Shown: piece after piece, positions 1,266 to 48,017 of the stretch
How the letters are laid out: each line of letters opens with the position of its first letter
How positions within the stretch are numbered: position 1 is the stretch's first letter
Source: Bacilli bacterium
Lineage (GTDB): Bacteria; Bacillota_I; Bacilli_A; RF39; UBA660
Direction: 5' to 3'
Assembly (NCBI GenBank): GCA_017940575.1
Contig: JAGAYJ010000032.1
Location: forward strand, 11,158 to 75,157
Length of the DNA: 64,000 nucleotides
Translations under genes and position numbers: made by a program
The notes under the pieces: generated by a model
Told to the model about the DNA's origin: nothing
The model's database searches: none
What the model saw: the letters and a program-made list of their open reading frames with translations, nothing else

Positions 1266-2501
1266 TTATTTAATTATGAATGGATTTGTAGAAGTTCCTG
1301 TTGCTGTATCAATATTTGATATATGAGTATTTGAATCAAGTGTAACTACTGCATATATTTGTTTATTATTAACTGGTCCAGTAAGAGCTAGAGTACCATC
1401 ACTATTAACAAACCAAATTTGTGTGCCATTATTATTAAGTGTCCATGTAGTACTAGATGAACCAAACATTTCTTTTAAATAATTATTTTCACTACATGCA
1501 CTTGATAAAAAGTTAGAATCACAAGTGGATGCTGATGCATTTACATAATCAAGTATTGATATCGTACCAACCTTTTGACTTGATAAATTATCTATATTAT
1601 TACTATTTAAAGTTGATTTTAAAGCATCAATTGAGAATTCATTAGATTCAACTTTGCCAATCAAATAATCAGCATTTATTATTTTGTTTGTGTCATAAGC
1701 TATTCCATCATCATCTATTTTTTTCATCAATAGTTCATTTAATGATGACTCTTTAAATGTAATTTGTTCATCCTTATTCCATGTATTAGTTGCAATTGGT
1801 GTTGTACTAATTAGTTTAACTTTATAGTTTTTCTTATCTATACTAAGTATTCTCCATGATGTATTTTTAGAGTTACCACTAGAATCTTTTCCCGTTAAAG
1901 TAACATAGTTATTAGGACTTGTTCCTCTAAATACATATTCACTTTCTAAATCATATAATCCACTATCAGTTTGACCAGAAACTTTTATATTTTTTTTATT
2001 CATTTCATATATAGCATATCCTGTTGATACTGCTTCTTTAGAAGATGATTCTTTTATAAATGTCTTTGCTGATCTATCGTAGGAATAAATGATATAACCA
2101 AATTCTTCATCAATATTTGATTCATTTGCATATGTAGAGCATGTCTTTTCATCATAAATATAGTTATATTTTTTATTATCTTGATTATATCTTATTCTAA
2201 TACAACCATTCATTGTTGATCTATCGCGTGGATTTTTAATTGGATCAGGTTCTAAATAGCCAGAAAATCTTAGAGACTCTAAGCTTATATATATATCATT
2301 AGCATGTGTATTATCTAATAAATCTATATTATTACTTGCCCATTTTTCACTAGCTAATTGTATATCTAAAATTTGGGAATTATATAAGTCTTCCTTTGAA
2401 TCATTAATAACCTTAGCAATATTTGGAAATATTATTAATGATGTAATTGAAAGAATTATTATTACTGAAAGTAATTCTATTAAAGTAAATCCTTTTTTCA
2501 T
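1266..2501 (-). CDS. Prepilin-type N-terminal cleavage/methylation domain protein (large pilin-like, about 411 aa)
   Basis: Preferred start is M8 (MKKGFTLIELLSVIIILSI...), which has an AGGAGG RBS 7 nt upstream that overlaps the PBP stop codon. The class III signal G|FTLIE is followed by a hydrophobic helix. The C-terminal ~380 aa are unrecognised. Confidence 0.7.
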   Translation of the reverse strand: MKKGFTLIELLSVIIILSITSLIIFPNIAKVINDSKEDLYNSQILDIQLASEKWASNNIDLLDNTHANDIYISLESLRFSGYLEPDPIKNPRDRSTMNGCIRIRYNQDNKKYNYIYDEKTCSTYANESNIDEEFGYIIYSYDRSAKTFIKESSSKEAVSTGYAIYEMNKKNIKVSGQTDSGLYDLESEYVFRGTSPNNYVTLTGKDSSGNSKNTSWRILSIDKKNYKVKLISTTPIATNTWNKDEQITFKESSLNELLMKKIDDDGIAYDTNKIINADYLIGKVESNEFSIDALKSTLNSNNIDNLSSQKVGTISILDYVNASASTCDSNFLSSACSENNYLKEMFGSSSTTWTLNNNGTQIWFVNSDGTLALTGPVNNKQIYAVVTLDSNTHISNIDTATGTSTNPFIIK

Positions 2502-2511
2502 AAATAACCTC

Positions 2512-4686
2512 CTATGTTCCAATATTATATTTATTATTTAATATAACGCTTAATGTCATATCATTTGTAACTGTTGAATCTGCTACAATACTTTGTTCTG
2601 TAACATATCCGTATCCTTCTATATTATACTTAATATTTAACATTTTTGAAAGTGTTATAACATCATTTCTACTAAATCCTGTTATATTTGGCATTTTATA
2701 TTCACTTACATTTGTAAGAAGTATTATTTTCTCACCAGGTGCGAGTTCAGTGCCTTTTATAACTGATTGTTTAGTTATTTTATCGCCATTACCTATTATA
2801 ATTGTTTTAATACCATTTGCTTCTAACTCTGACTTTACATCGCTTGTATTTTTACTAATATATGATTTAACAATATAACTTGTAGTTTGCTTCTCTGTAA
2901 TTTCTGTAAACATATTTTTATATTTAGCTATATTTTGCATCAACGATTTAACATTTGTATATAAGCCTGATGATTTACCCCAACTTGGTTTTTTCATAGC
3001 AGCATATATAATTATCTCTGGATCATCTTTAGGAAACATTCCAGAAAATGAGAATATATAATCGTTATCTCCAGTTGAATATGTACCTGTTTGAACATTA
3101 TAAATCTGACTTGTTCCTGTTTTTCCAATTATATTGAAGCCTTCAATTTTATATGGATATCCAGTTGATCCTGGATCAGTTCCATGAATTACATTATACA
3201 TTAAATCTTTTATCTTATTTACAGTATCAACACTTACTGCATCAGTTTCCTCTACTTTTCTTTTATAAATAACTTCATTAGTATCAGAATCAACTATTTT
3301 ACTTACTATATGTGGTTTTAACATTTTACCATTATTTGAAATAATAGTTAATGCTTGAAGTTGTTGAATAGCAGTTGTAGATATACCTTGACCAAATCCT
3401 GCATTTAAAAATTCTACATCATATGTAAACTTGATATTTCCTTTTGATTCATTAGATAACTCAATTCCTGTTAAAGCGCCAAAACCATACTTTTTAAAGC
3501 ACTCTTTTAATTGTTTTTTACTTATTGAATCATTTTTAGAAAGTAAGTTAGCTATACCAACATTACTAGAGTATTCTAATCCTTTATCATATGAAATATT
3601 GCCCCATCCAGGATGATACCAGTCAAATATAATATCTTCTCCTATTGTATAACTACCAGATAAGAAAGTTTCATTTCCATTATATTTTCCATTTTCCATA
3701 GCGCACATATAAGTGAAAGTTTTCATAACTGAACCTGGTTCATATGTTTTAGTTATAAGTGGATTTTCATAGTCAGTTATATCTCTTAAGTTTGGATTAA
3801 ATGAAGGAGTTGAAGATGAAGCTAAAATATCTCCTGTTTTAGCGTCCATTACACTTATAAGTGCCCATTCAGGGTGATAATTATCTTCTATATTTTTAAC
3901 TGCTGATTCTGTAAATCTTTGAATACCTGAATCAATAGTTAGATATATATCTTCACCATTTTTTGCTGGTATTGATTTTTCTTTTGTACCACTTATTTTA
4001 TATCCATATTTATTTACTTGATATTCTGAGTATCCATCAGTACCAGATAGTTTTTTATTGTATTCTGATTCAATACCCATCTCACCAACTATTTCATTAG
4101 TGATTATTTCGTTATCTTCCTCATCATAGGTTTTAACTTCTGTATTCTTAGCATACCCAATTAAATATGAAGCAAAATTACCATTTGGATAAAATCTCTT
4201 TTGACTTTCTGTAAAACTAATTCCTGGCAAGTTTAAAGCAATTATCTCATCTTTTACAATCTCAGTTAAACCTCTACCGAAACTTCCTAATTCAACTTGG
4301 TATTTATCTTGACTCAATTTTTCTACTAGATAATCTTTCTCACAACCTAAGATAGGCGCAAGTAATTCAGCTGTTTTATCAACATCATGTACATAGTCTT
4401 CTTTTGTATATACTTTACTTTTTTCTAGTGATGCAATAATGGTATATGAACTAACATTTAAAGCTAAACTATTTCCTTCGCTATCATAAATAGTTCCTCT
4501 TTTTGCTTTAATTGTTTTTTTAACAGTATTACGACTAGATGCAAATTCCGTCATATTTTTTCCATATATTGTTGGCGATAAAGATAGATAAGCAAATTTA
4601 ATATATAATAAAAAAATGCAAATAGAAAAAACTAAAAATAAGAATTTTGGTAATTGCCAATTTTTTGTTTTCCCTAATGCATTCAT
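2512..4686 (-). CDS. Class B penicillin-binding protein (PBP2B/FtsI-type transpeptidase) with two C-terminal PASTA domains
   Basis: 724 aa with an N-terminal TM segment. Motifs SxxK (GSVMK), SxN (YSSNVG) and KTG (GKTGTSQ). Sits after ftsL in the dcw cluster. Confidence 0.9.
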   Translation of the reverse strand: MNALGKTKNWQLPKFLFLVFSICIFLLYIKFAYLSLSPTIYGKNMTEFASSRNTVKKTIKAKRGTIYDSEGNSLALNVSSYTIIASLEKSKVYTKEDYVHDVDKTAELLAPILGCEKDYLVEKLSQDKYQVELGSFGRGLTEIVKDEIIALNLPGISFTESQKRFYPNGNFASYLIGYAKNTEVKTYDEEDNEIITNEIVGEMGIESEYNKKLSGTDGYSEYQVNKYGYKISGTKEKSIPAKNGEDIYLTIDSGIQRFTESAVKNIEDNYHPEWALISVMDAKTGDILASSSTPSFNPNLRDITDYENPLITKTYEPGSVMKTFTYMCAMENGKYNGNETFLSGSYTIGEDIIFDWYHPGWGNISYDKGLEYSSNVGIANLLSKNDSISKKQLKECFKKYGFGALTGIELSNESKGNIKFTYDVEFLNAGFGQGISTTAIQQLQALTIISNNGKMLKPHIVSKIVDSDTNEVIYKRKVEETDAVSVDTVNKIKDLMYNVIHGTDPGSTGYPYKIEGFNIIGKTGTSQIYNVQTGTYSTGDNDYIFSFSGMFPKDDPEIIIYAAMKKPSWGKSSGLYTNVKSLMQNIAKYKNMFTEITEKQTTSYIVKSYISKNTSDVKSELEANGIKTIIIGNGDKITKQSVIKGTELAPGEKIILLTNVSEYKMPNITGFSRNDVITLSKMLNIKYNIEGYGYVTEQSIVADSTVTNDMTLSVILNNKYNIGT

Positions 4687-7638: not shown

Positions 7639-10176
7639 CTATTTTATTTCACTTTTAAGTTTATAAAGTATATTTAAAGCATCTATTGGAGTTATTGATA
7701 AAATATCTAACTCTTTTAATTCTTTTTCAACTTGTGACTCTTCTTTCATTAAATCATCAAGTGGAAGACTATTTTGAACTATAACATCTCTTTTTGCTTC
7801 TTTATTTTCATATACTTTTAATATTTCATTTGCTCTTTTAATTAAAGCATCAGGTAGATTTGCAAGTTTAGCTACATGTATACCATAACTCTTATCAATA
7901 GAGCCATCATTTACTTTATGAATAAATGTTATATTTCCATCTTCTTCAACGGCACTAACATGTACATTTCTTAAAGTATCTAGTGTATCAGATAGATCAG
8001 TTAACTCATGATAATGTGTTGAGAAAAGTGTTTTACATTTAATATTTTTTTCAATATATTCAATAATTGATTGAGCAAGTGCCATACCATCAAATGTAGC
8101 TGTACCACGACCTAACTCATCAAATAAAACTAAACTATTTTCTGTTGCATTAGAAATAGCATATTCTGCTTCATTCATCTCAACCATAAATGTAGACTCA
8201 CCACTTACTAAATCATCACTTGCACCAATTCTTGTAAATATAGAATCAAATATTGGAAGAATTGCTTCTCGTGCTGGTACAAAACAACCTATTTGAGCCA
8301 TAATAACTGTTATAGCAAGTTGTCTCATATATGTTGATTTACCTGCCATATTAGGTCCAGTTATAAGTAATATATTTGTATTTTCATCCATTATAATATC
8401 ATTAGGTACATATTCTGTATCAATTACTTTTTCAACTACTGGATGTCTATTATCTATAAGTTTTATCTCTCTTTTTTCAGTTAATGTTGGTCTTATATAA
8501 TTGTTTTCTTCTGTAACTGTTGCGAATGATTGTAAGACATCTATCTCACTAATAGTTTTAGCAACGCTTTGTAGTTTTGGAATATATTCTTTAACTTTAT
8601 CACGAATTTCAATGAATAAGTTATATTCTAAATCAATTATTTTTTCTTCAGCATTTAATATTAATGCTTCTTTTTCTTTTAGAATTGGACTTATATATCT
8701 TTCACAGTTAGCAAGTGTTTGTCTTCTTTCATATCCATATTCTGGTTTGATTTCTTTTACATTTCCTTTTGATACTTCTATATAGTATCCAAATACTCTA
8801 TTGTAACCTACTTTTAAGTTTTTAATTCCAGTACGTTCTCTTTCTTCTGCTTCAAAACGCGCTACAAAGTCTTTACCACCTTTTCTTAAATCTTTTAATT
8901 CATCAAGTTCACTATTATATCCATCTTTTATAATATATCCTTCTTTTATAGATAAAGGTGGATTTTCATAAATACTTTCTTCTAATAAATCATATAGTTC
9001 TGATAATGTATCTATATTTTTATAAAACTTAATTTTAGTTAAAATATCTTTTATTCCAGGAAGTACTTTAAGTGATGCTTTAAGTTGAAGTAAGTCTTTA
9101 GCATTAGCGTTTCCAAATGCAACACGACCACTTAAACGTTCTAAGTCATATACATCAAAAAGTAAATTAGTTAAATCTTCTTTTAAAATAAATTCATTTA
9201 AAAGAGTATCTACCATATCATATCTTTTTTCTATTTCATCTTTATTAACTAAAGGACTTTCAATCATTGATTTGAGCATACGAGAACCCATTGCTGTTTT
9301 AGTCTTATCAAGTAACCAAATAAGTGAATAGTTTCTTTGCTTAAGTCTTAAAGTTTCAGTTAGCTCTAAATTTCTTTTAGTATGAACACTCATCTTTAAA
9401 TAGTCTTTATTCTCTTTAATAACAGCTTTTTGAAGGTGAGATAATTCTCTTTTTTGTGTTTTATTTATATATGTTAGTAAATGTTTAATAGTCTCTATAT
9501 ATCTTATATCACCTATATCTTCATAAATATAGTTATATTCATTTAAGTTATCTACATCATCTGATATAGAGATTGCTATTTTGAATTGATTTTTTAAAAG
9601 AGACATAATTGTTTTATCAAGTGTACTTTTAATTACTACTTCTTTAATACCAATACTAACTATCTCACTAACAAGTTTTGAGATATTGTGTTCCATTATA
9701 CTAGCATACACTTCACCTGTTGAGATATCTATATAAGATATAACATATGCATGATTAAAATCAATTATATTTCCTATATAGTTATTTTCAAATTCAACTA
9801 AAGATTCATCTACTATTGTACCCTTACTTATAATTTGAACGATATCTCTTTTAACTATACCTTTAGCTACATTCTTAGGATCTTCTAATTGTTCGCATAT
9901 ACCAATTTTATATCCTTTATCAACTAGTTTTTCTATGTAAAGATTTGCTGCATGATGAGGAATACCACACATTGGGATTTTTTCATCTAATCCCGCACTT
10001 TTACCAGTTAAGGTAAGTTCTAGTTCTCTAGATACTTTAATAGCATCCTCAAAGAACATCTCATAAAAATCACCTAATCTAAAAAAAATAATTACATCTT
10101 CATTATTCTTCTTTATTTCAAGATATTGTCTCATCATTGGCGTAACTTTATTTATGTCTACATCTTGTCTATTCAT
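7639..10176 (-). CDS. mutS: DNA mismatch repair protein MutS
   Basis: 845 aa. TPMMRQYLEIK, Walker A GPNMAGKST, STFMVEM. No mutL follows it. Confidence 0.95.
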   Translation of the reverse strand: MNRQDVDINKVTPMMRQYLEIKKNNEDVIIFFRLGDFYEMFFEDAIKVSRELELTLTGKSAGLDEKIPMCGIPHHAANLYIEKLVDKGYKIGICEQLEDPKNVAKGIVKRDIVQIISKGTIVDESLVEFENNYIGNIIDFNHAYVISYIDISTGEVYASIMEHNISKLVSEIVSIGIKEVVIKSTLDKTIMSLLKNQFKIAISISDDVDNLNEYNYIYEDIGDIRYIETIKHLLTYINKTQKRELSHLQKAVIKENKDYLKMSVHTKRNLELTETLRLKQRNYSLIWLLDKTKTAMGSRMLKSMIESPLVNKDEIEKRYDMVDTLLNEFILKEDLTNLLFDVYDLERLSGRVAFGNANAKDLLQLKASLKVLPGIKDILTKIKFYKNIDTLSELYDLLEESIYENPPLSIKEGYIIKDGYNSELDELKDLRKGGKDFVARFEAEERERTGIKNLKVGYNRVFGYYIEVSKGNVKEIKPEYGYERRQTLANCERYISPILKEKEALILNAEEKIIDLEYNLFIEIRDKVKEYIPKLQSVAKTISEIDVLQSFATVTEENNYIRPTLTEKREIKLIDNRHPVVEKVIDTEYVPNDIIMDENTNILLITGPNMAGKSTYMRQLAITVIMAQIGCFVPAREAILPIFDSIFTRIGASDDLVSGESTFMVEMNEAEYAISNATENSLVLFDELGRGTATFDGMALAQSIIEYIEKNIKCKTLFSTHYHELTDLSDTLDTLRNVHVSAVEEDGNITFIHKVNDGSIDKSYGIHVAKLANLPDALIKRANEILKVYENKEAKRDVIVQNSLPLDDLMKEESQVEKELKELDILSITPIDALNILYKLKSEIK

Positions 10177-26911: not shown

Positions 26912-27002
26912 TGGCGGAGTAGGCGAGATTTGAACTCGCGCGCCAGTTGCCCGACCTACACCCTTAGCAGGGGCGCCTCTTCAGCCTCTTGAGTACTACT
27001 CC
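26912..27002 (-). tRNA. tRNA-Ser (anticodon GCU), 91 nt with encoded CCA
   Basis: Folded by hand: acceptor GGAGTAG/CTACTCC, anticodon loop CUGCUAA, long variable arm, T-arm CGAGTTCAAATCTCG, discriminator G plus CCA. Confidence 0.9.
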
Positions 27003-27052: not shown

Positions 27053-27535
27053 TTATTCAAAAGATTCATCATAATTCTCACTTTTATAGTTTTCACCACA
27101 TCTTAAATATGGACTATAAGTATTATTTCCATCGTAAACTATATAACCAATGCATTTATTTTCTTTATCTTTTGGATCATATAAATCTTCCATATATTCA
27201 TCACTTACTAATTTAGATGTTTTAATAATTATTCTATCAGTTTTTCCTGTATAGTTAGTTGTTACATAAACTTTAGCAGTACTAACCATTTTTTCAAGTA
27301 AAATATCATATCCTGTTATTTTTTTATTATCTTCTTTACTCTCTTCTTTATTTTTATCCTCTATTATTTCTACATTTTCTAACTTTTTAACTTCACTTAC
27401 ATGTTTTATATCATCTACTTCACTATTAATATTCATAAAATTTCTATCAATAACAATAACACATATAACAAGTATAATCAAGAAAAAAGAAATAAAGAAT
27501 AGTAAATCTTGAAGTGTGAATCCTTTATTATTCAT
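27053..27535 (-). CDS. Prepilin-type N-terminal domain protein (divergent pseudopilin-like)
   Basis: MNNKGFTLQDLLFFISFFLIILV. The G|FTLQD signal has Asp instead of Glu at +5. The start overlaps the NrtR-like gene by 8 nt. Confidence 0.6.
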   Translation of the reverse strand: MNNKGFTLQDLLFFISFFLIILVICVIVIDRNFMNINSEVDDIKHVSEVKKLENVEIIEDKNKEESKEDNKKITGYDILLEKMVSTAKVYVTTNYTGKTDRIIIKTSKLVSDEYMEDLYDPKDKENKCIGYIVYDGNNTYSPYLRCGENYKSENYDESFE

Positions 27536-28190
27536 ATGTTATTACCTCACTATCTTTAAATCTATATAGTTTTGCTGGTCTACCCATTTTATTATTTGTT
27601 TTATAATTAGTATCTTCTAATATATTTAAATTAAGTATCATTTTTCTAAAGTTTCTTCTATCTAGTTTTTTACCTAATATTTGTTCATATACAACTTGTA
27701 GTTCAGGTAAAGTAAAATCACTTGGAAAGAATATTTTTAACATAATAGGATTAGTTAAATATCTCTTTAAATGATTAATAGCATCCTTTAATATATCAGC
27801 ATGATCAAATATCATTTTTGGTATTTCATCTACATTAAACCAAACACCTTCATAAGGAGTTTTTTTCTTATGCATTAAAAGTGATTCCTCATCAATAATA
27901 CCTATTACTGAGTTACCAAGTATTCTATCATTAGGTAGTCTATCAACTTTACTAAATATATTACATTGTTCTATATGGATATCTTTAAGTCCAACATATT
28001 CTTCTATAGTAGCAAGTGCACATTCTTCAATAGTTTCACTAGTCATAAGTAAATTACTAGGAAGCATCCAATAACCTTTAAATGGTTCTTCCAATCTTCT
28101 TATTAAATATACTTTTAAACTATTCTTATCTATTGTAAATACGTTTGTTAAAACTTCTATTTGATTTATATATCTTCTATCTATATCCAT
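27528..28190 (-). CDS. NrtR-like regulator (degenerate Nudix domain plus C-terminal winged helix)
   Basis: The Nudix fold has a degenerate box (SETIEECALATIEEYVGL). The C-terminus reads FTLPELQVVYEQILGKKLDRRNFRKMILNLNILEDT...GRPAKLYRF, typical of NrtR. The start was trimmed to MDIDRRY because the ORF-track start is the promoter -35 element TTGACA. Confidence 0.75.
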   Translation of the reverse strand: MDIDRRYINQIEVLTNVFTIDKNSLKVYLIRRLEEPFKGYWMLPSNLLMTSETIEECALATIEEYVGLKDIHIEQCNIFSKVDRLPNDRILGNSVIGIIDEESLLMHKKKTPYEGVWFNVDEIPKMIFDHADILKDAINHLKRYLTNPIMLKIFFPSDFTLPELQVVYEQILGKKLDRRNFRKMILNLNILEDTNYKTNNKMGRPAKLYRFKDSEVITYE

Positions 28191-28206
28191 ATATATCACC
28201 ATAATA

Positions 28207-28235
28207 ATTATATATAAATATACATATTTTGTCAA
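28207..28235 (-). promoter_or_regulatory. Consensus sigma-A promoter of the NrtR-like/pilin-like pair
   Basis: TTGACA-17 nt-TATAAT (perfect hexamers). Confidence 0.65.
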
Positions 28236-28242
28236 AGAATAT

Positions 28243-28271
28243 AAAGAAAAAACATATATTAGATATATGTT
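28243..28271. terminator. Hairpin terminator (bidirectional appearance)
   Basis: AACATATAT-tag-ATATATGTT, a 9-bp stem with T-rich tracts on both strands. Confidence 0.45.
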
Positions 28272-28482
28272 TAATATTTTTTTAATATCTATTAATTTTA
28301 ATAATTCATATATTTTTCATAGTTCTATTTATAAAATTCGCTAAGTCAATTTTTAGAAATCAAAAACATTTTCTATTCATTTTTCAAAATTAGTCATTTG
28401 TAATAATTCTTAAAATATATTAGTATTTACTTTGACACATTTTATTATTGTTGTGCTTCTTTCTTAGAAAGGAGTGATAAGT

Positions 28483-28560
28483 ATGAAGCGAAATAAAAAA
28501 TTCTTACATACTGAAGTAATCATTCTTCTATTAATAATTATTATTCTACTTGTTAGATAG
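28483..28560 (+). CDS. Unannotated 25-aa hydrophobic peptide (type I toxin-like): MKRNKKFLHTEVIILLLIIIILLVR
   Basis: ATG preceded by AAAGGAG at 8-nt spacing. The peptide has a basic N-terminus, a 15-residue I/L/V core and a terminal Arg. It lies in a 630-bp otherwise non-coding gap, and a convergent sRNA candidate abuts its stop codon. Confidence 0.4.
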   Translation: MKRNKKFLHTEVIILLLIIIILLVR

Positions 28561-28561
28561 T

Positions 28562-28649
28562 AAAAATAATAAAAGAACACAACATATTACACTGTAATAG
28601 TTGTGTTCAATACACAAGTATCTGAGCACACATAATAAGGTGTGTCTCT
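28562..28649 (-). ncRNA. Candidate ~88-nt small RNA convergent with the 25-aa ORF (putative type I antitoxin)
   Basis: It has its own TTGACT-16-TATAAT promoter. The 5' hairpin is GAGACACAC/GTGTGCTC. The 3' terminator is a 9+7-bp stem at 28575-28608 followed by TTTTATTATTTTT. Confidence 0.4.
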
Positions 28650-28655
28650 AATTAA

Positions 28656-28683
28656 ATTATACTCTAAATTATTATTTAGTCAA
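28656..28683 (-). promoter_or_regulatory. Near-consensus sigma-A promoter of the candidate sRNA
   Basis: TTGACT (28678-28683), 16-nt spacer, TATAAT (28656-28661). Confidence 0.55.
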
Positions 28684-28746
28684 ACAGATTTTTATACATT
28701 TTTTAATTTTCTACCCTGTGCCTACACTACCGTTCGGCACCAATAT

Positions 28747-28770
28747 CCCCCTCATCATTAGATGAGGGGG
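28747..28770. other. Perfect GC-rich hairpin CCCCCTCATC-ATTA-GATGAGGGGG
   Basis: 10-bp perfect stem with a 4-nt loop and no U-tract on either strand. It sits about 100 nt downstream of the pilin-like stop, inside the GC-rich block. Confidence 0.85.
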
Positions 28771-28795
28771 ATAGGGATTCAAGATTAGAAGATAT

Positions 28796-28850
28796 GCGAA
28801 TCATCTTATTATTATCTAGTTATTATGTTGGTCACTACCTGATGATTCGC
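28796..28850. repeat. 10-bp perfect inverted repeat GCGAATCATC / GATGATTCGC flanking a 35-bp AT-rich segment
   Basis: Read directly from the sequence. It shares the TCATC...GATGA core with the neighbouring hairpin. Confidence 0.85.
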
Positions 28851-28868
28851 CTTCGGGAGCAGCAATAC

Positions 28869-29798
28869 CTAAGAGCATACAGCTGCACCACCGCCAAGGA
28901 CATCGCATCCACCAACATCGTAAGCATAGACGGTCACAGTGCCATCAGAACTCGCATACGCATAGACAGAGTCGCCATAGCAGCGGACACCGTTAGAATC
29001 AACACCGCAGCTATCGTTTCCAAATGTATTTAATAATAATGTTTTATTTTGCTCAAATTTAGAAACATCTGCACTTCTCTCTAAGCAAAATTCTTGTCCA
29101 TTATTACCACATACATCAATTTCTTCTATTATCTCATTTGAATTTAATGTATGTTTTAAATAGACGTTCCAACTTGCATCTGGACTTGTCTTATAATCTA
29201 GATTTGGTGTTGTAAAATTTGATGCAACACATTCACCAGGTAGATTTGAATTATGACATTCCTCTTCTGTATTAAATGGAATATCTATATTATTATATGT
29301 AGTAAATACATATTTACTTCCCATATCTTGATTTGCATCAATTGGGTATCCTACATGTGTTGCTCCATTTACTCTGCTATATACAACGTTTGGATAACTA
29401 TTATCTACAACACAGTTATTTTCTTTAGTAGAACTTTTAATTTTATTATTCTCTACTACTACTTTATATTTTCCTATACATAAAGTAGATGATGATACTT
29501 TACCATTTGATAAGGCAACATATCCACTACTAGGAGTTTGTCCTTTTACTTTAACTCCTTTACTAATTAGTTCTGATACATTATATCTACTATTTAAATC
29601 AATTTTATTTGCCTCAGTTAGTTCATTTAACATAGCTTGTTTTTCTACAGCGTCAATCCATCCTAAAGCAGATGATTCTGCTCCTCCTTTTCTTGCTTTC
29701 TCAACAATACCTGAAATAGTTGGAACAGCAATTAAAGCAATGATTGCTAGTATTACTATTACTGCAAGTAATTCTATAAGTGTAAAACCTTTTTTCAT
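28869..29798 (-). CDS. Type IV pilin-like protein (prepilin N-terminus) with a compositionally foreign Cys/Gly-rich C-terminal tail
   Basis: MKKGFTLIELLAVIVILAIIALIAVP... The N-terminal ~60 aa are paralogous to the pilin-like gene at 47556-48017. The last ~47 codons are about 53% G+C. Confidence 0.75.
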   Translation of the reverse strand: MKKGFTLIELLAVIVILAIIALIAVPTISGIVEKARKGGAESSALGWIDAVEKQAMLNELTEANKIDLNSRYNVSELISKGVKVKGQTPSSGYVALSNGKVSSSTLCIGKYKVVVENNKIKSSTKENNCVVDNSYPNVVYSRVNGATHVGYPIDANQDMGSKYVFTTYNNIDIPFNTEEECHNSNLPGECVASNFTTPNLDYKTSPDASWNVYLKHTLNSNEIIEEIDVCGNNGQEFCLERSADVSKFEQNKTLLLNTFGNDSCGVDSNGVRCYGDSVYAYASSDGTVTVYAYDVGGCDVLGGGAAVCS

Positions 29799-29941: not shown

Positions 29942-30750
29942 ATGAATAATTTAAAAATAACAAATTCAAATTTCTAAATATTAAACATATTGATGAAAAT
30001 GGATTAGAATATTGGAATGCAAGAAAGTTAATGAAAGCTTTAGAATATACTGAATATAGAAAATTTCTACCAGTAATTAATAAAGCAATTATATCTTGCG
30101 AAAACATTAATCATAATAAAAATAACCATTTTGTTGATGTCAACAAAATGGTCAATATTGGTTCCAATACATCTAGAACAATAAAAGATTACAAGTTATC
30201 AAGATATGCCTGTTATCTTATTGCTCAAAATGCTGATTCAAGAAAAAAAGTTGTAGCTTTCGCTCAAACATACTTTGCTTATCAAACAAGAAAACAGGAA
30301 CTATTAGAACAAAACTATAATATGCTTACTGAAGAAGATAAAAGAATATTTAATAGAAAATTAACTAAAAAAGGAAACTATGAACTTAATCAAACGGCTT
30401 TAAAAGCAGGCGTTAGAAACTTTGGTAAATTCCGAAACGTTGGATATAAAGGTTTATATAATGGAGAAACTGCTGATGATATTGCAAAAAGAAAGAATCT
30501 TCATTATAGAGAAGAAATACTTGACCATATGGGAAGCGAAGAGTTAGCTGATAATTTATTTAGAATAGTTCAAACAGAATCTAAGATTAGAAATGAAAAA
30601 ATTATTGGAGAAGATAATTGTAGTAAAACACACTATGATATGGGACATAATATTAGAGAATTTATAAAAAATAATGGAGGAACTATGCCTGAGAACTTAC
30701 CTACTCCAAAGCATAGTTTAAAAGAAATAGAAAATAAAAAAGAGAGTTAA
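29942..30750 (+). pseudogene. dinD: dinD-family (DNA-damage-inducible protein D-like) gene with an N-terminal frameshift
   Basis: An ATG at 29942 with a GAAGGA RBS encodes MNNLKITNSNF, then TAA at 29975. The -1 frame continues NIKHIDENGLEYWNARKLMKALEY..., colinear with the intact paralog at 61444-62277 (MSKIILKNSIFEDIKHIDEEELEYWSARELQKVLGY). The ORF track starts only at the internal Met (30031). Confidence 0.6.
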
Positions 30751-44435: not shown

Positions 44436-45299
44436 TTATTTTTTTGTATCTAATAATTTTTTATCTAATTTTTCAATACCAAGTACATTTTTGTCTTTTG
44501 ATAAAATACTAAGTTCTTTTCTTGCAGCAACATTTAATTTTTCAAGCCTTTCACTTTGTTTTATGTTATTATCAATCATGTTAGCATTTAACACTTCTAA
44601 ATTACTTAAAACTATTAAATAAAGTATATCTGCATAATCTCTTATATTACCCTCTAAATTGGGATTATTTTTTCTCCATTCTCCCGCAGTCATACCAAAC
44701 AATGCAACATTTATTACATCAGCTTCATTTGCATAAACAAATTGTTTTTGTTTCTCAGTAAGCTTAGGTACAATATTTCCCTTAATACTATCTGTATGTA
44801 TTCTATAATTAGTTTTAGATAGACTTCTTCTAACAGACCATTCTATTTTTTCTTGATAACTTTCATTATATTTTAATCTTTTAAATTCCTTTATTAAATA
44901 TATTTTAAATAAATTGTCAATCCATGAAGCAAATTCTAATGCTATGTCAGCATGTGCAAATGTTCCAACACTATATTTACCTTTACTATATGTCATACCA
45001 ATAGCATTAACTCTTGTACACCATTGACTTGGTGTCATTGTAAAAGACCTTTTAGGTGCTTCGTTTTTAATTAGGCTGAATTCCGCCGAATTAAAATTTT
45101 CATTACTTAATTCTTCCCATAATCCTAGAAATTCTATTGTATCATAATTACTTAGCCATTTTTTTATTACATCTGATGGATCATTTGGATTTTTATATCT
45201 TGCTAAATCTGTTAATGAAATATAATCCTCATCATTAATTCTCATTACTCTAATTTCACTTTCATTTACATTCATAATAGTTGTAATTCTATCATTCAT
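44436..45299 (-). CDS. KilA-N domain DNA-binding protein
   Basis: 287 aa. RVMRINDEDYISLTDLARYKN...DVIKKWLSNYDTIEFLGLWEELSN...FAHADIALEFASWI. Confidence 0.7.
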   Translation of the reverse strand: MNDRITTIMNVNESEIRVMRINDEDYISLTDLARYKNPNDPSDVIKKWLSNYDTIEFLGLWEELSNENFNSAEFSLIKNEAPKRSFTMTPSQWCTRVNAIGMTYSKGKYSVGTFAHADIALEFASWIDNLFKIYLIKEFKRLKYNESYQEKIEWSVRRSLSKTNYRIHTDSIKGNIVPKLTEKQKQFVYANEADVINVALFGMTAGEWRKNNPNLEGNIRDYADILYLIVLSNLEVLNANMIDNNIKQSERLEKLNVAARKELSILSKDKNVLGIEKLDKKLLDTKK

Positions 45300-45832: not shown

Positions 45833-46723
45833 TTATATTAATTGATATTCTCTAACCACTATTCTTTCATCTGAACAGTATTCAATAACAAATTTATTTT
45901 CTCTTTTACAAATTAATATTCCCATTGTATTATTATTTCCATATTCTTTAATATTTTTATCTATATAATTCATATACTTTTGAACTTGTGATATATATTC
46001 TACTTTAAATTCAGTTACTTTAAGTTCTACTACAACATAAGAATTATACTTTATATTAAATAGTAAAAAATCAATATAATGATTTTTATCACCTATTTTT
46101 ATCTTGTATTCACCACCTATGAAGCTAATCGAGTTACCAAGACCTTTCATAAATGATTCTATATCTTCTAATATTAACTGATGTAAGGCTTTTTCATTAG
46201 TTATTTCTGTACTATTCCTATTCCTAATTAATATAGGATTTGGAACTAAATCTTGTAGTTCAATCTTTTCGTCGTTTATAAGTTTATTCTTTGTTTCAAT
46301 AGGTAATCTTTCATATTCCCTATTTTTAATAATCTCTCTAAGCTTATTTCTACTTAAGTTTCTTTTAACACATTGTTCAAAATAATAGTTTATTTCATTT
46401 ATGTCTTTTAATGGTAATAACTCCGAATAATGACTCCATGTCAATTGTGTCGCCACTGGCGACACTTTTCTATTTTTAAACATATTATAAAATTGTTTCA
46501 TTCTAAATAAAGTTCTTCGATTATATTTTTTACCAACTTCTAAAACTAATTTTTTAGAATATTCTTCTATTATATTATCTCCATATTTTCCACCAGCTTC
46601 ATTTAATAATTTGCCAATTTCAAAATATGTCATAACTTTATGTCTTTCTTTTGAATAATCTTTAACTCTCGAATATACTTCGTTATCTATTAGTTTATTC
46701 TTTATCTCATTATAATAATTCAT
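45833..46723 (-). CDS. DUF1016/YhcG-family PD-(D/E)XK nuclease-like protein
   Basis: LTWSHYSELLPL..., and a C-terminal core YIDFLLFN...VVVELKVTEF. The start is at MNYYNEIKN, behind AAAGGAG. Confidence 0.7.
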   Translation of the reverse strand: MNYYNEIKNKLIDNEVYSRVKDYSKERHKVMTYFEIGKLLNEAGGKYGDNIIEEYSKKLVLEVGKKYNRRTLFRMKQFYNMFKNRKVSPVATQLTWSHYSELLPLKDINEINYYFEQCVKRNLSRNKLREIIKNREYERLPIETKNKLINDEKIELQDLVPNPILIRNRNSTEITNEKALHQLILEDIESFMKGLGNSISFIGGEYKIKIGDKNHYIDFLLFNIKYNSYVVVELKVTEFKVEYISQVQKYMNYIDKNIKEYGNNNTMGILICKRENKFVIEYCSDERIVVREYQLI

Positions 46724-46797
46724 ATTGCTCCTTTCTACGATATACATTCTTAAAGATCTAATTTGTTAGTTTTACATTACCTAATAGAAAAAAGAAT

Positions 46798-46882: not shown

Positions 46883-47554
46883 TTATTCATATCTAATTGC
46901 ATACATTACAGATGTGTTTGTTGGACGTGATGTATATTTAGCATAACTTCCAGATGCACTCGTAATATTACCACTAAATGTTGCTTGTGATAAAACAGTT
47001 CCATATGTTTTATCAGCATATTGTGGGTCAGTCCATGATGAATCATTTGTACTAAGACTTCTATAAGAATATAATCCACCTTTATTTGCATTAAAAATAT
47101 GTGCAAACGCTGTACCATCTTGATGCACACCTACATCTGCACCACTACCTTGATTAGCATGACTATTAGTTCCAGTTCCTCTTAAGAATTCCCCTCTTAA
47201 ATCAGGTACTGCAAATGTTGTAGTTCCATCCCCACCAAATTTATTATAAGATCCAAAATTTGTCTTTATATGTTCTGCTAAAATTGGATAATCACTTATT
47301 TTATAAGTTTTACCATCACACTCTAAATAATGTTCTGGTACAATTGTACCCATATAATTTATTATCTCACCTACTGGAGTTTTAATAGTGTCATAATAAT
47401 ATAAGCTATCTATTGCGGCTTCTACATTACTAACATTCCATTTAGAATCTTTTGGATGATACTCTATATTGCTTGCTAGTAAACTAGAAGCTAGTACATT
47501 AGCCATTGTTCCAATTAATACACCTATAATTATAGTTAAAATTGTCTTTTTCAT
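46883..47554 (-). CDS. Secreted/anchored phage tail-collar domain protein
   Basis: An N-terminal signal/anchor, then GTIVPEHYLECDGKTYKISDYPILAEHIKTNFG...GGDGTTTFAVPDLRGEFLRGTG, the tail-collar (Collar) domain signature. Confidence 0.7.
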   Translation of the reverse strand: MKKTILTIIIGVLIGTMANVLASSLLASNIEYHPKDSKWNVSNVEAAIDSLYYYDTIKTPVGEIINYMGTIVPEHYLECDGKTYKISDYPILAEHIKTNFGSYNKFGGDGTTTFAVPDLRGEFLRGTGTNSHANQGSGADVGVHQDGTAFAHIFNANKGGLYSYRSLSTNDSSWTDPQYADKTYGTVLSQATFSGNITSASGSYAKYTSRPTNTSVMYAIRYE

Positions 47555-47555
47555 A

Positions 47556-48017
47556 TTAACCTCTTAAATCATCTAAAGCATCTGCTACAGATTTTCCATC
47601 TTTATATTCTACTTGACTAGCATCAGTAATCTCTTCTTCACATTTTTTAATAGCTTTTGCTAATCCATTACTATATTCAACAGTATAATTACTAATACAC
47701 ATAGATGCACTTTCAACTTTATTGCTTGAAATTACTATTGTTCCGCTTGTAGGTTTTTTACCTTTTACTGATACATTATACTTGCTTTCTAGTGGAAGTT
47801 CTAATTCACCAGTAGGAATTTCATTTTCACCTTTAACTTGATTTAAAAGCATTGCTTTTTCAACGGCATCAATATATCCTATTGCACTAGCCTCAGCTGA
47901 TCCTTTTTTAGCTTTTTCAATTACACTTCTAAGAGCAACTGTAGTAATTAATGCTATAATTGCAAGTATTACAATAACCGCAAGTAACTCAATTAGTGTA
48001 AAACCTTTTTTTGTCAT
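47556..48017 (-). CDS. Type IV pilin-like protein
   Basis: MTKKGFTLIELLAVIVILAIIALITT... It stops 1 nt before the tail-collar gene start. Confidence 0.75.
   Translation of the reverse strand: MTKKGFTLIELLAVIVILAIIALITTVALRSVIEKAKKGSAEASAIGYIDAVEKAMLLNQVKGENEIPTGELELPLESKYNVSVKGKKPTSGTIVISSNKVESASMCISNYTVEYSNGLAKAIKKCEEEITDASQVEYKDGKSVADALDDLRG

What the first reader, a model, noticed from the sequence alone, without database searches (positions are those of the whole stretch)
28711..29025. Abrupt GC-rich, adenine-poor block covering the C-terminal tail and 3' flank of a pilin-like gene
Composition, by hand count:
- 28871-29020 is 79/150 G+C (about 53%).
- 28711-28870 is 70/160 G+C (about 44%).
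- The next 80 nt of the same gene (29021-29100) is 21/80 G+C (about 26%), and the whole window looks under 30%.

Where the block sits:
- The switch occurs inside the CDS, about 47 codons before the stop: ...GNDSCGVDSNGVRCYGDSVYAYASSDGTVTVYAYDVGGCDVLGGGAAVCS.
- It continues through the stop codon into non-coding DNA.

Codon and base usage:
- Codon choice changes as well. GGC, GCG, CGC, GTC, GAC and ACC are used, so amino-acid composition alone does not explain the shift.
- The coding strand of the tail is only about 16% A (24/153).
- The tail has four Cys and an internal VYAY...G repeat.

Possible explanations (inference):
- (a) A recently acquired or recombined C-terminal module, making this a mosaic pilin tip.
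- (b) A target of directed hypervariation. A C-terminal, A-depleted segment followed by GC-rich hairpins is reminiscent of a DGR variable region, but no reverse transcriptase or template repeat is present in these 64 kb.
- (c) A structured 3' RNA element that was acquired together with the tail.
Basis: partly seen in the sequence, partly recalled or inferred. Interest (0 to 1): 0.7.

Follow-up and report, generated by a model that had tools for sequence, protein, structure and literature searches.

The report
Orphaned DGR variable region in pilin-like gene
The GC-rich, adenine-poor end of this pilin-like gene is the footprint of a retroelement that rewrites a protein tip by targeted mutation. 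A related strain still carries the retroelement next to the gene, but here it has been cleanly removed, leaving the rewritten tip and its docking site behind.

Summary
At 54.7% G+C, the block is the most GC-rich 150 nt in a 27% G+C window.

It is the variable region (VR, 28852-29011, minus strand) of a diversity-generating retroelement (DGR) target, plus a conserved structured 3' flank (28691-28850). The gene encodes a type IV pilin-like protein with a 175-aa C-terminal domain, whose last 46 residues are the VR.

The closest homologue (80% aa) lies in a syntenic locus, L009. There it is followed by TR-bAvd-RT-MutS-like genes, and 25 of 28 VR/TR mismatches fall on TR adenines. In the window this 2.3-kb cassette is absent, with the junction at about 28684-28690. 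No RT, Avd or TR occurs in the 64 kb or in 10 kb further left.

Composition is explained. Family TRs are 43-46% GC and 27-28% A, and their VRs are 51-56% GC and 15-17% A. The window VR is 53% and 16%.

A 2-nt insertion creates the TAG stop, so part of the "3' flank" is former coding sequence.

The most likely reading is a leftover VR frozen after cassette loss. A DGR acting in trans is not excluded. This is a known mechanism with a scarcely described target scaffold that has no PDB fold match.

The parts
28869..29798 (-). Type IV pilin-like gene (309 aa). It is the DGR target gene, truncated by a premature TAG.
   Evidence: ORF. PF07963 N_methyl scores 29 bits against a cutoff of 21.2. TIGR02532 scores 33.6 bits against a cutoff of 16.3. 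A profile of the family matches the N-terminal ~55 aa of solved type IV pilins. There are 5268 homologues.
29724..29795 (-). Prepilin-type N-terminal cleavage/methylation motif (KKGFTLIELLAVIVILAIIALIAV), with G at -1, F at +1 and E at +5.
   Evidence: G4, F5 and E9 are invariant in alignment A1.
28872..29396 (-). C-terminal 175-aa beta-rich module (residues 135-309) that carries the VR. It is shared at DNA level with homologues that have different N-terminal halves.
   Evidence: blastn shows that L007 and L011 both become alignable to the window at 29397. The AF2 domain model has pLDDT 94.7 and pTM 0.89. Foldseek finds no PDB match with E<0.001.
28852..29011 (-). DGR variable region (VR), the stretch homologous to the template repeats of relatives. 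It is 53% G+C and 16% A.
   Evidence: Alignment to the L009 and L007 VR/TR pairs. Mismatch to the L009 TR is 26/44 at A positions and 19/115 elsewhere, p = 3e-7. Coordinates.
28870..28871 (-). 2-nt insertion (TA) relative to all homologues. It creates the in-frame TAG stop inside the TR-homologous 3' end of the VR.
   Evidence: DNA alignment and protein alignment. The same insertion is present in L001-L003, which come from three samples.
28816..28869 (-). Former C-terminal extension, now out of frame (GIAAPEGESSGSDQHNN*). Homologues keep this extension in frame.
   Evidence: Read directly from the sequence and compared with the homologues' ...GLVAPEGESSSSEP... tails.
28796..28850 (-). Hairpin H1. 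The arms GCGAATCATC (28841-28850) and GATGATTCGC (28796-28805) begin 1 nt after the end of VR/TR homology.
   Evidence: The arms are conserved in L009 and L007.
28775..28793 (-). Conserved flank motif ATCTTCTAATCTTGAATCC.
   Evidence: Near-invariant in 5 loci. Also present (CATCTTGTAATCTTGAATC) directly after the VR of the more distant DGR in L032.
28744..28773 (-). Hairpin H2 (TATCCCCCTCATC-TAAT-GATGAGGGGGATA).
   Evidence: In L032 hairpins of unrelated sequence occupy the same place.
28718..28740 (-). Hairpin/motif H3 (GTGCCGAACGGTAGTGTAGGCAC).
   Evidence: Conserved in 5 loci and in L032.
28684..28690 (.). Junction where the 2.3-kb TR-bAvd-RT-MSL cassette of the syntenic relative (L009, about 1345-3690) is absent.
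   Evidence: L009:13-1342 aligns to window 30024-28691 and L009:3672-4080 aligns to window 28683-28281. Three-way junction alignment A2.

Best explanation
**What it is.** The block is the variable region (VR) of a diversity-generating retroelement (DGR) target, together with the conserved cis-acting flank that follows VRs in this DGR family.

**How the family works** (shown in relatives, and established for DGRs in general):
- A template repeat (TR) is transcribed.
- The DGR reverse transcriptase, with Avd, copies it into cDNA and misincorporates opposite template adenines.
- The cDNA replaces the VR at the 3' end of the target gene. Sequences at and after the VR's 3' end guide this replacement.

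**Why the composition is odd.**
- Scaffold codons in the TR avoid A, so they are never mutated.
- Variable codons in the TR are AAY.
- After A-to-N replacement, the VR ends up adenine-poor and much more GC-rich than the 27% G+C host genome.

**The protein.** It has a type IV pilin-like N-terminus and pilin core (residues 1-134). This carries a 175-aa beta-rich C-terminal domain. The last 46 residues of that domain are the VR. Variable residues alternate with V/A/G/C scaffold residues along beta-strands.

**State in this window.** The adjacent TR-bAvd-RT-MutS-like cassette seen in a syntenic relative is precisely absent. The VR is therefore an orphan.
- I put DGR origin at about 0.9.
- Given DGR origin, I put about 0.6-0.65 on a leftover frozen in its last diversified state after loss of the cassette. 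This is inferred.
- The remaining 0.35-0.4 is for a VR still serviced in trans by a DGR elsewhere in the genome.
For: **Canonical DGR beside the closest homologue.**
- In L009 the target gene (80% aa identity to the window protein) is followed by a TR, bAvd (PF22296 6e-13; NF033474 2e-12), an RT (PF00078 2e-20) and a MutS_I-domain protein.
- The RT translation contains the strings IGNQTSQ and YMDD. That these are DGR-RT hallmarks is from my own knowledge.
- The L009 VR (1024-1178) and TR (1450-1604) are 83% identical. Of 28 mismatches in the core, 25 fall on TR adenines.
- The same adenine bias appears in L032, with 19/46 A positions against 6/124 other positions mismatched, and in L007, with 20/38 against 8/99.

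**Synteny and precise absence of the cassette.**
- The two sides of the L009 cassette align to window 30024-28691 and 28683-28281.
- tblastn with the L009 Avd, RT and MSL proteins, and blastn with the TRs, find nothing else in the 64 kb.
- No RT occurs in 10 kb further left.

**The window VR carries the DGR signature.**
- Against the L009 TR it mismatches at 26/44 A positions and 19/115 other positions (p = 3e-7). The 16.5% at non-A positions equals the general divergence of the locus.
- Across 13 homologues, column entropy is 2.31 bits at codons with A in TR positions 1 or 2, against 1.15 bits elsewhere (p = 6e-6).

**Composition is quantitatively reproduced.** Family TRs are 43-46% GC and 27-28% A. 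Their VRs are 51-56% GC and 15-17% A. The window VR is 53% GC and 16% A. Its third-position A is 3/46 against 127/263 in the body of the gene.

**Conserved flank.** The 3' flank is conserved in 5 loci. Its motifs recur after the VR of a DGR whose RT is only 62% identical.

**Evidence for the frozen state.**
- The VR is identical in the three contigs retrieved, each from a different sample, and six contigs encode the identical 309-aa protein.
- A 2-nt insertion persists inside the TR-homologous region, where retrohoming would be expected to overwrite it.

**Precedents for partial loss.**
- L007 retains a TR remnant with a 6-nt deletion and has no Avd or RT.
- L011 is another orphan VR.
- 'Leftover' DGR targets are described in Treponema denticola (PMC4891356).
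Against: - No TR or RT was found for this genome, so DGR origin rests on homologues rather than on a cognate TR.
- Only about 74 kb of the genome could be inspected. Remote DGR targets more than 100 kb from the RT are documented (PMC5758913).
- The VR shows no compositional decay and its flank is intact. This fits a recent loss, but it fits continued servicing in trans equally well.
- Identical VRs across samples do not discriminate. Members of the 90% cluster of the DGR-linked homologue P0002 also share one VR while differing in the body.
- The function of the conserved flank is inferred from position and conservation only.
Confidence: 0.8

Rival explanations
1. The VR is a live remote target. 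A DGR (TR, Avd, RT, possibly MSL) located elsewhere in the same genome still diversifies this VR in trans.
For: - The VR shows no decay of composition, and its flank with the H1-H3 hairpins is intact.
- Non-adjacent and remote targets are documented for 45 of 372 DGRs, and trans action has been shown experimentally (PMC5758913).
- RTs of this family are common in related Bacilli metagenome bins, with 774 hits.
Against: - The syntenic relative has its own adjacent cassette, so the ancestral arrangement was cis, and that cassette is what is missing.
- No TR, RT or Avd occurs in 64 kb plus 10 kb.
- The 2-nt insertion inside the TR-homologous 3' end has not been overwritten.
- The three contigs retrieved, each from a different sample, have the same VR, and six contigs encode the identical protein.
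- Pattern scans for a matching VR/TR core in GTDB representatives, JGI metagenomes and IMG/VR gave only chance hits. These collections probably do not hold this organism.
Confidence: 0.3
2. The block is a horizontally acquired or recombined C-terminal module whose composition reflects a GC-richer donor, with no retroelement involved.
For: - The C-terminal module, VR and flank are shared at DNA level with proteins that have different N-terminal halves. L007 and L011 both become alignable at window 29397.
- L032 has a membrane-anchor N-terminus with the same C-terminal scaffold.
Against: - The composition switch is not at the module boundary (29397). It is at the VR start (about 29011), and the rest of the module has host-like composition.
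- Mismatches to relatives' TRs are adenine-specific.
- A foreign donor would not explain third-position A of 7% together with T of 52%.
Confidence: 0.03
3. The GC-rich stretch is primarily a structured non-coding RNA gene or cis-regulatory RNA that the pilin ORF happens to read into.
For: - The flank folds significantly better than shuffles (z = -4.9) and is more conserved than the coding sequence.
- GC-rich sequence has few stop codons, and a 79-aa ORF is also open on the opposite strand.
Against: - There is no Rfam match at gathering score or at E<=1, apart from a 12-bit chance hit.
- The tail is translated and conserved as protein scaffold in more than 25 homologues, with invariant Cys and Gly.
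- The tail is modelled at pLDDT about 95 as part of a compact domain.
Confidence: 0.03
4. The tail undergoes Neisseria-type pilin antigenic variation, that is, gene conversion from silent cassettes, with the conserved flank acting like the Sma/Cla repeat.
For: The gene shows hypervariable Cys-bracketed C-terminal pilin segments and a conserved 3' flank shared by several pilin-like loci. The resemblance to Neisseria pilE/pilS is recalled from general knowledge.
Against: - There is no second copy of the tail in 64 kb.
- In relatives the only second copy is a single TR that differs at adenines and is linked to an RT.
Confidence: 0.02

Closest known systems
Canonical DGRs (Bordetella phage BPP-1 mtd/TR/avd/brt prototype)
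   Same: - The VR lies at the 3' end of the target ORF.
- TR/VR mismatches fall almost only at TR adenines.
- Variable codons in the TR are AAY.
- Avd plus an RT containing the strings IGxxxSQ and YMDD are present in the relative L009.
- A hairpin follows the VR directly.
   Different: - In the window itself the TR, Avd and RT are absent.
- The conserved post-VR element is long (about 110-160 nt, three hairpins plus two conserved motifs), not a single short hairpin.
- The VR-bearing domain gives no Foldseek match to any solved structure.
DGRs with Avd plus the MutS-like (MSL) accessory gene: 'architecture D' of Wu et al. 2018 (PMC5758913), and the Bacteroides Bfr/Bth/Bun DGRs (bioRxiv 10.1101/2024.11.15.621889)
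   Same: The relatives L009 and L032 have target-TR-avd-RT followed by a 134-137-aa MutS_I-domain protein.
   Different: - The hosts are low-GC Bacilli from gut metagenomes.
- The target is type IV pilin-like rather than a C-type lectin-fold protein or a type V pilin.
- No MSL is present in the window.
[quoted passage not shown] 2016, PMC4891356)
   Same: A VR-bearing target gene persists without an RT or TR. The VR still differs from relatives' TRs mostly at adenine positions.
   Different: - Here the loss is mapped to a precise junction in a syntenic locus.
- Intermediate decay states are seen in relatives: a TR remnant in L007 and ameliorated tails in L004 and L005.
DGR-diversified type V pilus tip pilins of Bacteroides (bioRxiv 10.1101/2024.11.15.621889)
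   Same: The logic is the same: a pilus subunit carries a DGR-diversified C-terminal head.
   Different: - The pilus system is unrelated. Type V pilins are lipoprotein precursors, whereas this protein has a type IV prepilin N-terminus.
- The Bacteroides heads are C-type lectin folds. This domain gave no structural match.
[quoted passage not shown]
   Same: It is a type IV pilin / pseudopilin-class N-terminus on a DGR target.
   Different: That paper gives only a one-line mention in a survey. The scaffold, the flank and orphan copies are not described there.

Membership tests
Diversity-generating retroelement (complete element) | A reverse transcriptase of the DGR clade encoded with the element. 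| tested here: not met
   tblastn with the L009 RT finds no homologue in the 64-kb window. No RVT_1 gene occurs in the 10 kb to the left. An RT is present in the syntenic relative L009 (PF00078 2e-20, containing the strings IGNQTSQ and YMDD).
Diversity-generating retroelement (complete element) | A template repeat paired with the VR, differing from it essentially only at TR adenines. | tested here: not met
   The window holds no second copy of 28701-29060 and no match to the relatives' TRs other than the VR itself. The feature is met in relatives: L009 has 25/28 mismatches at A, and L032 and L007 show the same bias.
Diversity-generating retroelement (complete element) | An accessory gene (Avd, HRDC or MSL). 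| tested here: not met
   No Avd or MSL homologue is in the window. The only MutS_I hit is the genuine mutS at 7639-10176. bAvd and MSL are present in L009 and L032.
DGR target gene / variable region | The VR lies at the 3' end of an ORF, is adenine-depleted relative to the TR, and shows variation confined to TR-adenine codons. | tested here: met
   - The VR (28852-29011) forms the last 46 codons of the gene.
- It is 16% A. Against the L009 TR, 59% of A positions and 16.5% of other positions differ.
- The family-wide entropy test gives p = 6e-6.
DGR target gene / variable region | Target-recognition sequences at or after the 3' end of the VR (IMH-like end of homology plus a hairpin). | tested here: inconclusive
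   The end of homology (GCTCCCGAR) and a downstream element with three hairpins are conserved in 5 loci and in L032. Their function in retrohoming was not tested and cannot be tested with these tools.
DGR target gene / variable region | Present-day diversification, seen as within-population VR variants. | not testable with these tools
   No reads are available. The VR is identical in the three contigs retrieved, each from a different sample, and the 90% cluster of P0001 has a single member. The same is true of the DGR-linked P0002 cluster.
C-type lectin-fold DGR variable proteins (Mtd, TvpA class) | The VR is displayed on a C-type lectin / FGE-sulfatase-like fold. | tested here: not met
   - The AF2 models are confident (pLDDT 88.4 for the whole protein, 94.7 for the C-terminal domain).
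- Foldseek against 350,542 PDB chains and against BFVD gives no hit with E<0.001, and the best TM-score is about 0.2.
- Pfam finds only N_methyl.
- Caveat: Foldseek can miss very divergent folds.
Type IV pilin / pseudopilin | A class III signal peptide with a G(-1)|F(+1)xxxE(+5) motif followed by a hydrophobic alpha-1 helix. | tested here: met
   - The N-terminus reads MKKG|FTLIELLAVIVILAIIALIAV.
- PF07963 and TIGR02532 score above their cutoffs.
- A family profile matches residues 1-55 of solved pilins (PilE1, 2e-9).
- The model shows helix 7-60 followed by a four-stranded sheet.
Type IV pilin / pseudopilin | Processing by a prepilin peptidase and assembly by a type IV pilus or Com machinery. 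| not tested
   No search for PilD, PilB or PilC homologues was made. Only other pilin-like genes were noted in the window (1266-2522, 27053-27535, 47556-48017).

The most novel reading that the evidence does not exclude
The 175-aa C-terminal domain may be a previously undescribed DGR display scaffold, neither C-type lectin nor Ig-like.
- It would be a disulfide-braced beta-meander in which variable residues alternate with V/A/G along strands.
- It is mounted on type IV pilin-like or membrane anchors in low-GC gut Bacilli.
- It would be recognised through an unusually long conserved post-VR element: two motifs plus hairpins.

Orphan VRs such as this one would then be compositional fossils. They could be found by GC and adenine skew alone, which RT-anchored DGR finders cannot do.
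Probability: 0.35. Interest if true: 0.6.

Novelty: new member of a known kind. Interest (0 to 1): 0.45.

Why it matters
- **A hard-to-explain anomaly is explained.** A 53% G+C, adenine-poor patch inside a gene of a 27% G+C genome is accounted for quantitatively by a known mechanism.
- **Composition alone can flag these regions.** Skew in G+C and adenine can reveal DGR variable regions that have lost their retroelement. RT-anchored DGR finders would miss such copies.
- **An under-described target class.** The family comprises type IV pilin-like proteins of uncultured gut Bacilli. Their diversified C-terminal domain has no detectable structural relative.
- **A candidate recognition element.** The long conserved post-VR element could be tested in reconstituted DGR systems.
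- **A natural decay series.** The loci form a series: complete DGR (L009), TR remnant (L007), intact orphan VR (window, L011) and ameliorated tails (L004, L005). This series could be used to study how DGRs are lost.

Tried and rejected
- **Self-comparison.** Comparing 28701-29060 with the whole window at word size 7 gave only the H2 hairpin and no TR.
- **Rfam.** At gathering score on the window, only the L10 leader matched. At E<=1 on 28100-29100, only a 12-bit chance hit appeared. On L009 and L007, only a T-box ahead of ileS matched. No known RNA family covers the flank.
- **Pattern scans for a VR/TR core** (TGCKNNTGCGNNTNYYGATGGCNNTGTG). GTDB representatives gave 13 hits, JGI metagenomes 6 and IMG/VR 1. 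The GTDB hits come from unrelated taxa. The three I measured are 45-56% G+C, and the one I inspected (L013) has no VR-like sequence. The seven JGI and IMG/VR hits are 44-69% G+C and have no similarity to the VR.
- **Flank-motif scans** in IMG/VR and JGI gave 0 hits.
- **Within-cluster variants.** I looked for VR variants within 90% protein clusters as a proxy for activity. It was uninformative, because the DGR-linked P0002 cluster also has an invariant VR.
- **Same-genome RT.** I looked up RT P0140 because it sat on a similar number of contigs. It comes from different samples and belongs to a different DGR.
- **Contig walking.** The left side gave 10 kb with no RT. The right-edge look-up failed because the product is not on record.
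- **Fold searches.** Foldseek on the whole protein (PDB, BFVD) and on the C-terminal domain (PDB) gave no significant match.
- **Hypotheses considered and rejected.** These were a foreign-donor mosaic, an ncRNA gene, and pilE/pilS-type gene conversion (see rivals).
Full report
**1. The observation**

The window is 27.1% G+C. The most GC-rich 150-nt stretch (54.7%) starts at 28843. It is about 5 sd above the mean of sliding windows and is the only stretch above 50%.

The ORF 28869..29798 on the minus strand encodes 309 aa. It has a prepilin-type N-terminal methylation motif. PF07963 and TIGR02532 both score above their cutoffs.

Codon usage changes in the last 46 codons:
- Third-position A falls from 48% (127/263) to 7% (3/46), p = 2e-8.
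- Third-position C rises from 5% to 35%.

The other sharp GC peak nearby is a tRNA-Ser gene at 26912-27002.

**2. Homologues show a hypervariable tail on a fixed scaffold**

A protein search returned thousands of pilin-like relatives. In the 25 closest, the body is well conserved. The last ~46 residues vary strongly on an invariant frame, C.V.S..V.C...S V.A.A...G.V.V....C.V..GGAA.C. Most homologues then continue with ...GLVAPEGESSSSEP....

In the window this extension is still encoded after the TAG stop, but in another frame (GIAAPEGESSGSDQHNN*). A 2-nt insertion (TA, about 28870-28871) created the stop. The three contigs retrieved, each from a different sample, carry exactly the same sequence, so it is not a sequencing error.

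**3. The closest homologue is a DGR target**

P0002 (80% identity) lies on L009. It is followed by a bAvd gene, a 367-aa reverse transcriptase and a 134-aa MutS_I-domain protein. The RT contains the strings IGNQTSQ and YMDD. That these are DGR-RT hallmarks is from my own knowledge.

A 155-nt direct repeat links the tail (VR, L009:1024-1178) to a copy 426 nt downstream (TR, 1450-1604) at 83% identity. Of 28 mismatches in the core, 25 fall on TR adenines. The TR carries 16 AAY codons at exactly the hypervariable protein positions.

Two further loci show the same bias:
- L032, whose RT is 62% identical to that of L009.
- L007, which retains a TR remnant with a 6-nt deletion but has no Avd or RT.

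The Avd plus MutS-like arrangement is the known 'architecture D' of Wu et al. 2018 (PMC5758913).

**4. The window is the same locus without the cassette**

L009:13-1342 aligns to window 30024-28691 at 83.6% identity. L009:3672-4080 aligns to window 28683-28281 at 81%. The three-way junction alignment shows that about 2.3 kb is missing between window 28684 and 28690. The missing piece comprises a promoter-like region, the TR, avd, the RT gene and MSL.

Searches with the L009 proteins and with both TRs find nothing else in the 64 kb. The only MutS_I hit is the genuine mutS. Ten more kilobases to the left contain no RT.

**5. The window VR bears the DGR signature**

Against the L009 TR, the window VR differs at 26 of 44 adenine positions and at only 19 of 115 other positions (p = 3e-7). 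The 16.5% at non-adenine positions equals the divergence of the surrounding locus. The VR was therefore most probably written by the orthologous TR, which has since been lost.

Across 13 homologues, column entropy is 2.31 bits at codons with A in TR positions 1 or 2, against 1.15 bits elsewhere (p = 6e-6).

**6. Why it is GC-rich and A-poor**

| Sequence | G+C | A | Source |
|---|---|---|---|
| Family TRs | 43-46% | 27-28% | |
| Family VRs | 51-56% | 15-17% | |
| Window VR | 53% | 16% | |

My inference is as follows. Scaffold codons must avoid adenine to stay invariant, which explains GGC, GTC, GCG, TGC and TCT. A-to-N mutagenesis then removes more than half of the remaining adenines.

More distant homologues lack the conserved flank and have tails of only 39-40% G+C with 23-26% A (L004, L005). 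These look like older orphans drifting back to host composition.

**7. The 3' flank**

Window 28691-28850 is conserved in five loci. It is more conserved there than the coding sequence. It folds into three hairpins (z = -4.9):
- H1 (28796-28850) starts 1 nt after the end of TR/VR homology and loops out the C-terminal extension.
- Motif ATCTTCTAATCTTGAATCC (28775-28793) follows.
- H2 lies at 28744-28773.
- H3 lies at 28718-28740.

In L032 the same motifs directly follow the VR, but the hairpins between them have unrelated sequences. This argues for conserved structure rather than conserved sequence.

No Rfam family matches the flank. By position it corresponds to the target-recognition region of DGRs, but that function is inferred and not shown.

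**8. The protein**

The AlphaFold2 model of the whole protein (pLDDT 88) shows a pilin helix at residues 7-60 and a four-stranded sheet, followed by a separate C-terminal domain. Modelled alone, residues 135-309 reach pLDDT 94.7 and pTM 0.89. The VR forms the last six short beta-strands.

Foldseek finds no significant match in the PDB or BFVD for either model. A sequence profile matches only the N-terminal 55 residues of solved pilins.

The C-type lectin fold typical of DGR targets was therefore tested and not detected. Foldseek can miss very divergent folds, so this is not proof of absence.

The module, VR and flank are shared at DNA level with proteins that have other N-terminal halves. L007 and L011 both become alignable to the window at 29397. 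L032 has a membrane anchor instead of a pilin N-terminus.

**9. Live or fossil?**

For a frozen leftover:
- The cis cassette is deleted.
- The TA insertion lies inside the TR-homologous region and has not been overwritten.
- The VR is identical in the three contigs retrieved from three samples, and six contigs encode the identical protein.
- The 90% protein cluster has a single member.

Against:
- Only about 74 kb of the genome could be inspected.
- Remote targets are known.
- The VR shows no compositional decay.
- The DGR-linked P0002 cluster also shows an invariant VR, so assembly-level identity does not discriminate.

I put DGR origin at about 0.9. Given that, I put about 0.6-0.65 on a leftover and 0.35-0.4 on trans servicing.

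**10. Known or new?**

- DGRs, the MSL accessory gene and leftover targets (Treponema denticola, PMC4891356) are all known.
- A 'G-type pilin' domain on DGR targets has been listed as rare (PMC11661182).
- DGR-diversified type V pilins are described in Bacteroides.

This is a new member of a known kind. Two possibly new aspects remain unproven: a non-lectin display scaffold and a long conserved post-VR element.

Noticed in passing
window 28568-28683 (minus strand): A strong promoter-like site (TTGACT-16-TATAAT, 28656-28683) sits exactly at the cassette-deletion junction. Two hairpins and a T-run follow (28625-28647, 28568-28608). The region is 81% identical to L009:3672-4080. In L009 it precedes a T-box-like leader (66 bits, below the gathering score) and ileS. 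In the window no T-box or ileS follows.
   Followed up: partly
window 28484-28561 (+): A tiny ORF encodes a hydrophobic 25-aa peptide (MKRNKKFLHTEVIILLLIIIILLVR). The surrounding 28474-28582 is 76% identical to L007:7024-7137, which lies upstream of the pilin-like gene in that locus.
   Followed up: no
window 1266-2522, 27053-27535, 47556-48017 (all minus strand): Three further pilin-like genes. Those at 1266-2522 and 47556-48017 have N_methyl hits. The 27053-27535 product has no N_methyl hit and looks pilin-like only by its N-terminal sequence. The 153-aa one lies directly upstream of a phage-tail-collar-domain protein (46883-47554). None has a GC-rich tail.
   Followed up: partly
L039:15427-17418 (about 5-7 kb beyond the window's left end); L040:6349-8067: A 663-aa pilin-like protein has an AT-rich C-terminus (...FFIRGGVMDNKSS...) that resembles lectin/FGE-sulfatase-type DGR target tails by eye. 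In another sample the same gene is cut to 572 aa by a stop codon.
   Followed up: no
L007:8876-9030: A template-repeat remnant with a 6-nt deletion lies after the VR. No avd or RT follows; the next gene encodes pyruvate phosphate dikinase. This is an intermediate stage of DGR decay in a homologous locus.
   Followed up: yes
L004, L010, L037, L038 (contig ends): Four homologue contigs stop 8-245 nt after the target gene's stop codon. This would fit assemblies breaking at the VR/TR repeat or at the multi-copy flank.
   Followed up: no
L032:4800-5480: A related DGR has a 218-aa target with a membrane-anchor N-terminus instead of a pilin motif. Its VR carries a 12-nt insertion relative to its TR.
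   Followed up: partly
window 30031-30750 (+), 44436-45299 (-), 45833-46747 (-): Bro-N-like, KilA-N and YhcG/DUF1016 nuclease genes are scattered among core genes (rpoBC, ribosomal proteins). A Bro-N gene also lies divergently upstream of the target gene in L009 and L037.
   Followed up: no
window 26912-27002 (-): A tRNA-Ser(GCU) gene accounts for the second-highest local GC peak (46.7%).
   Followed up: yes
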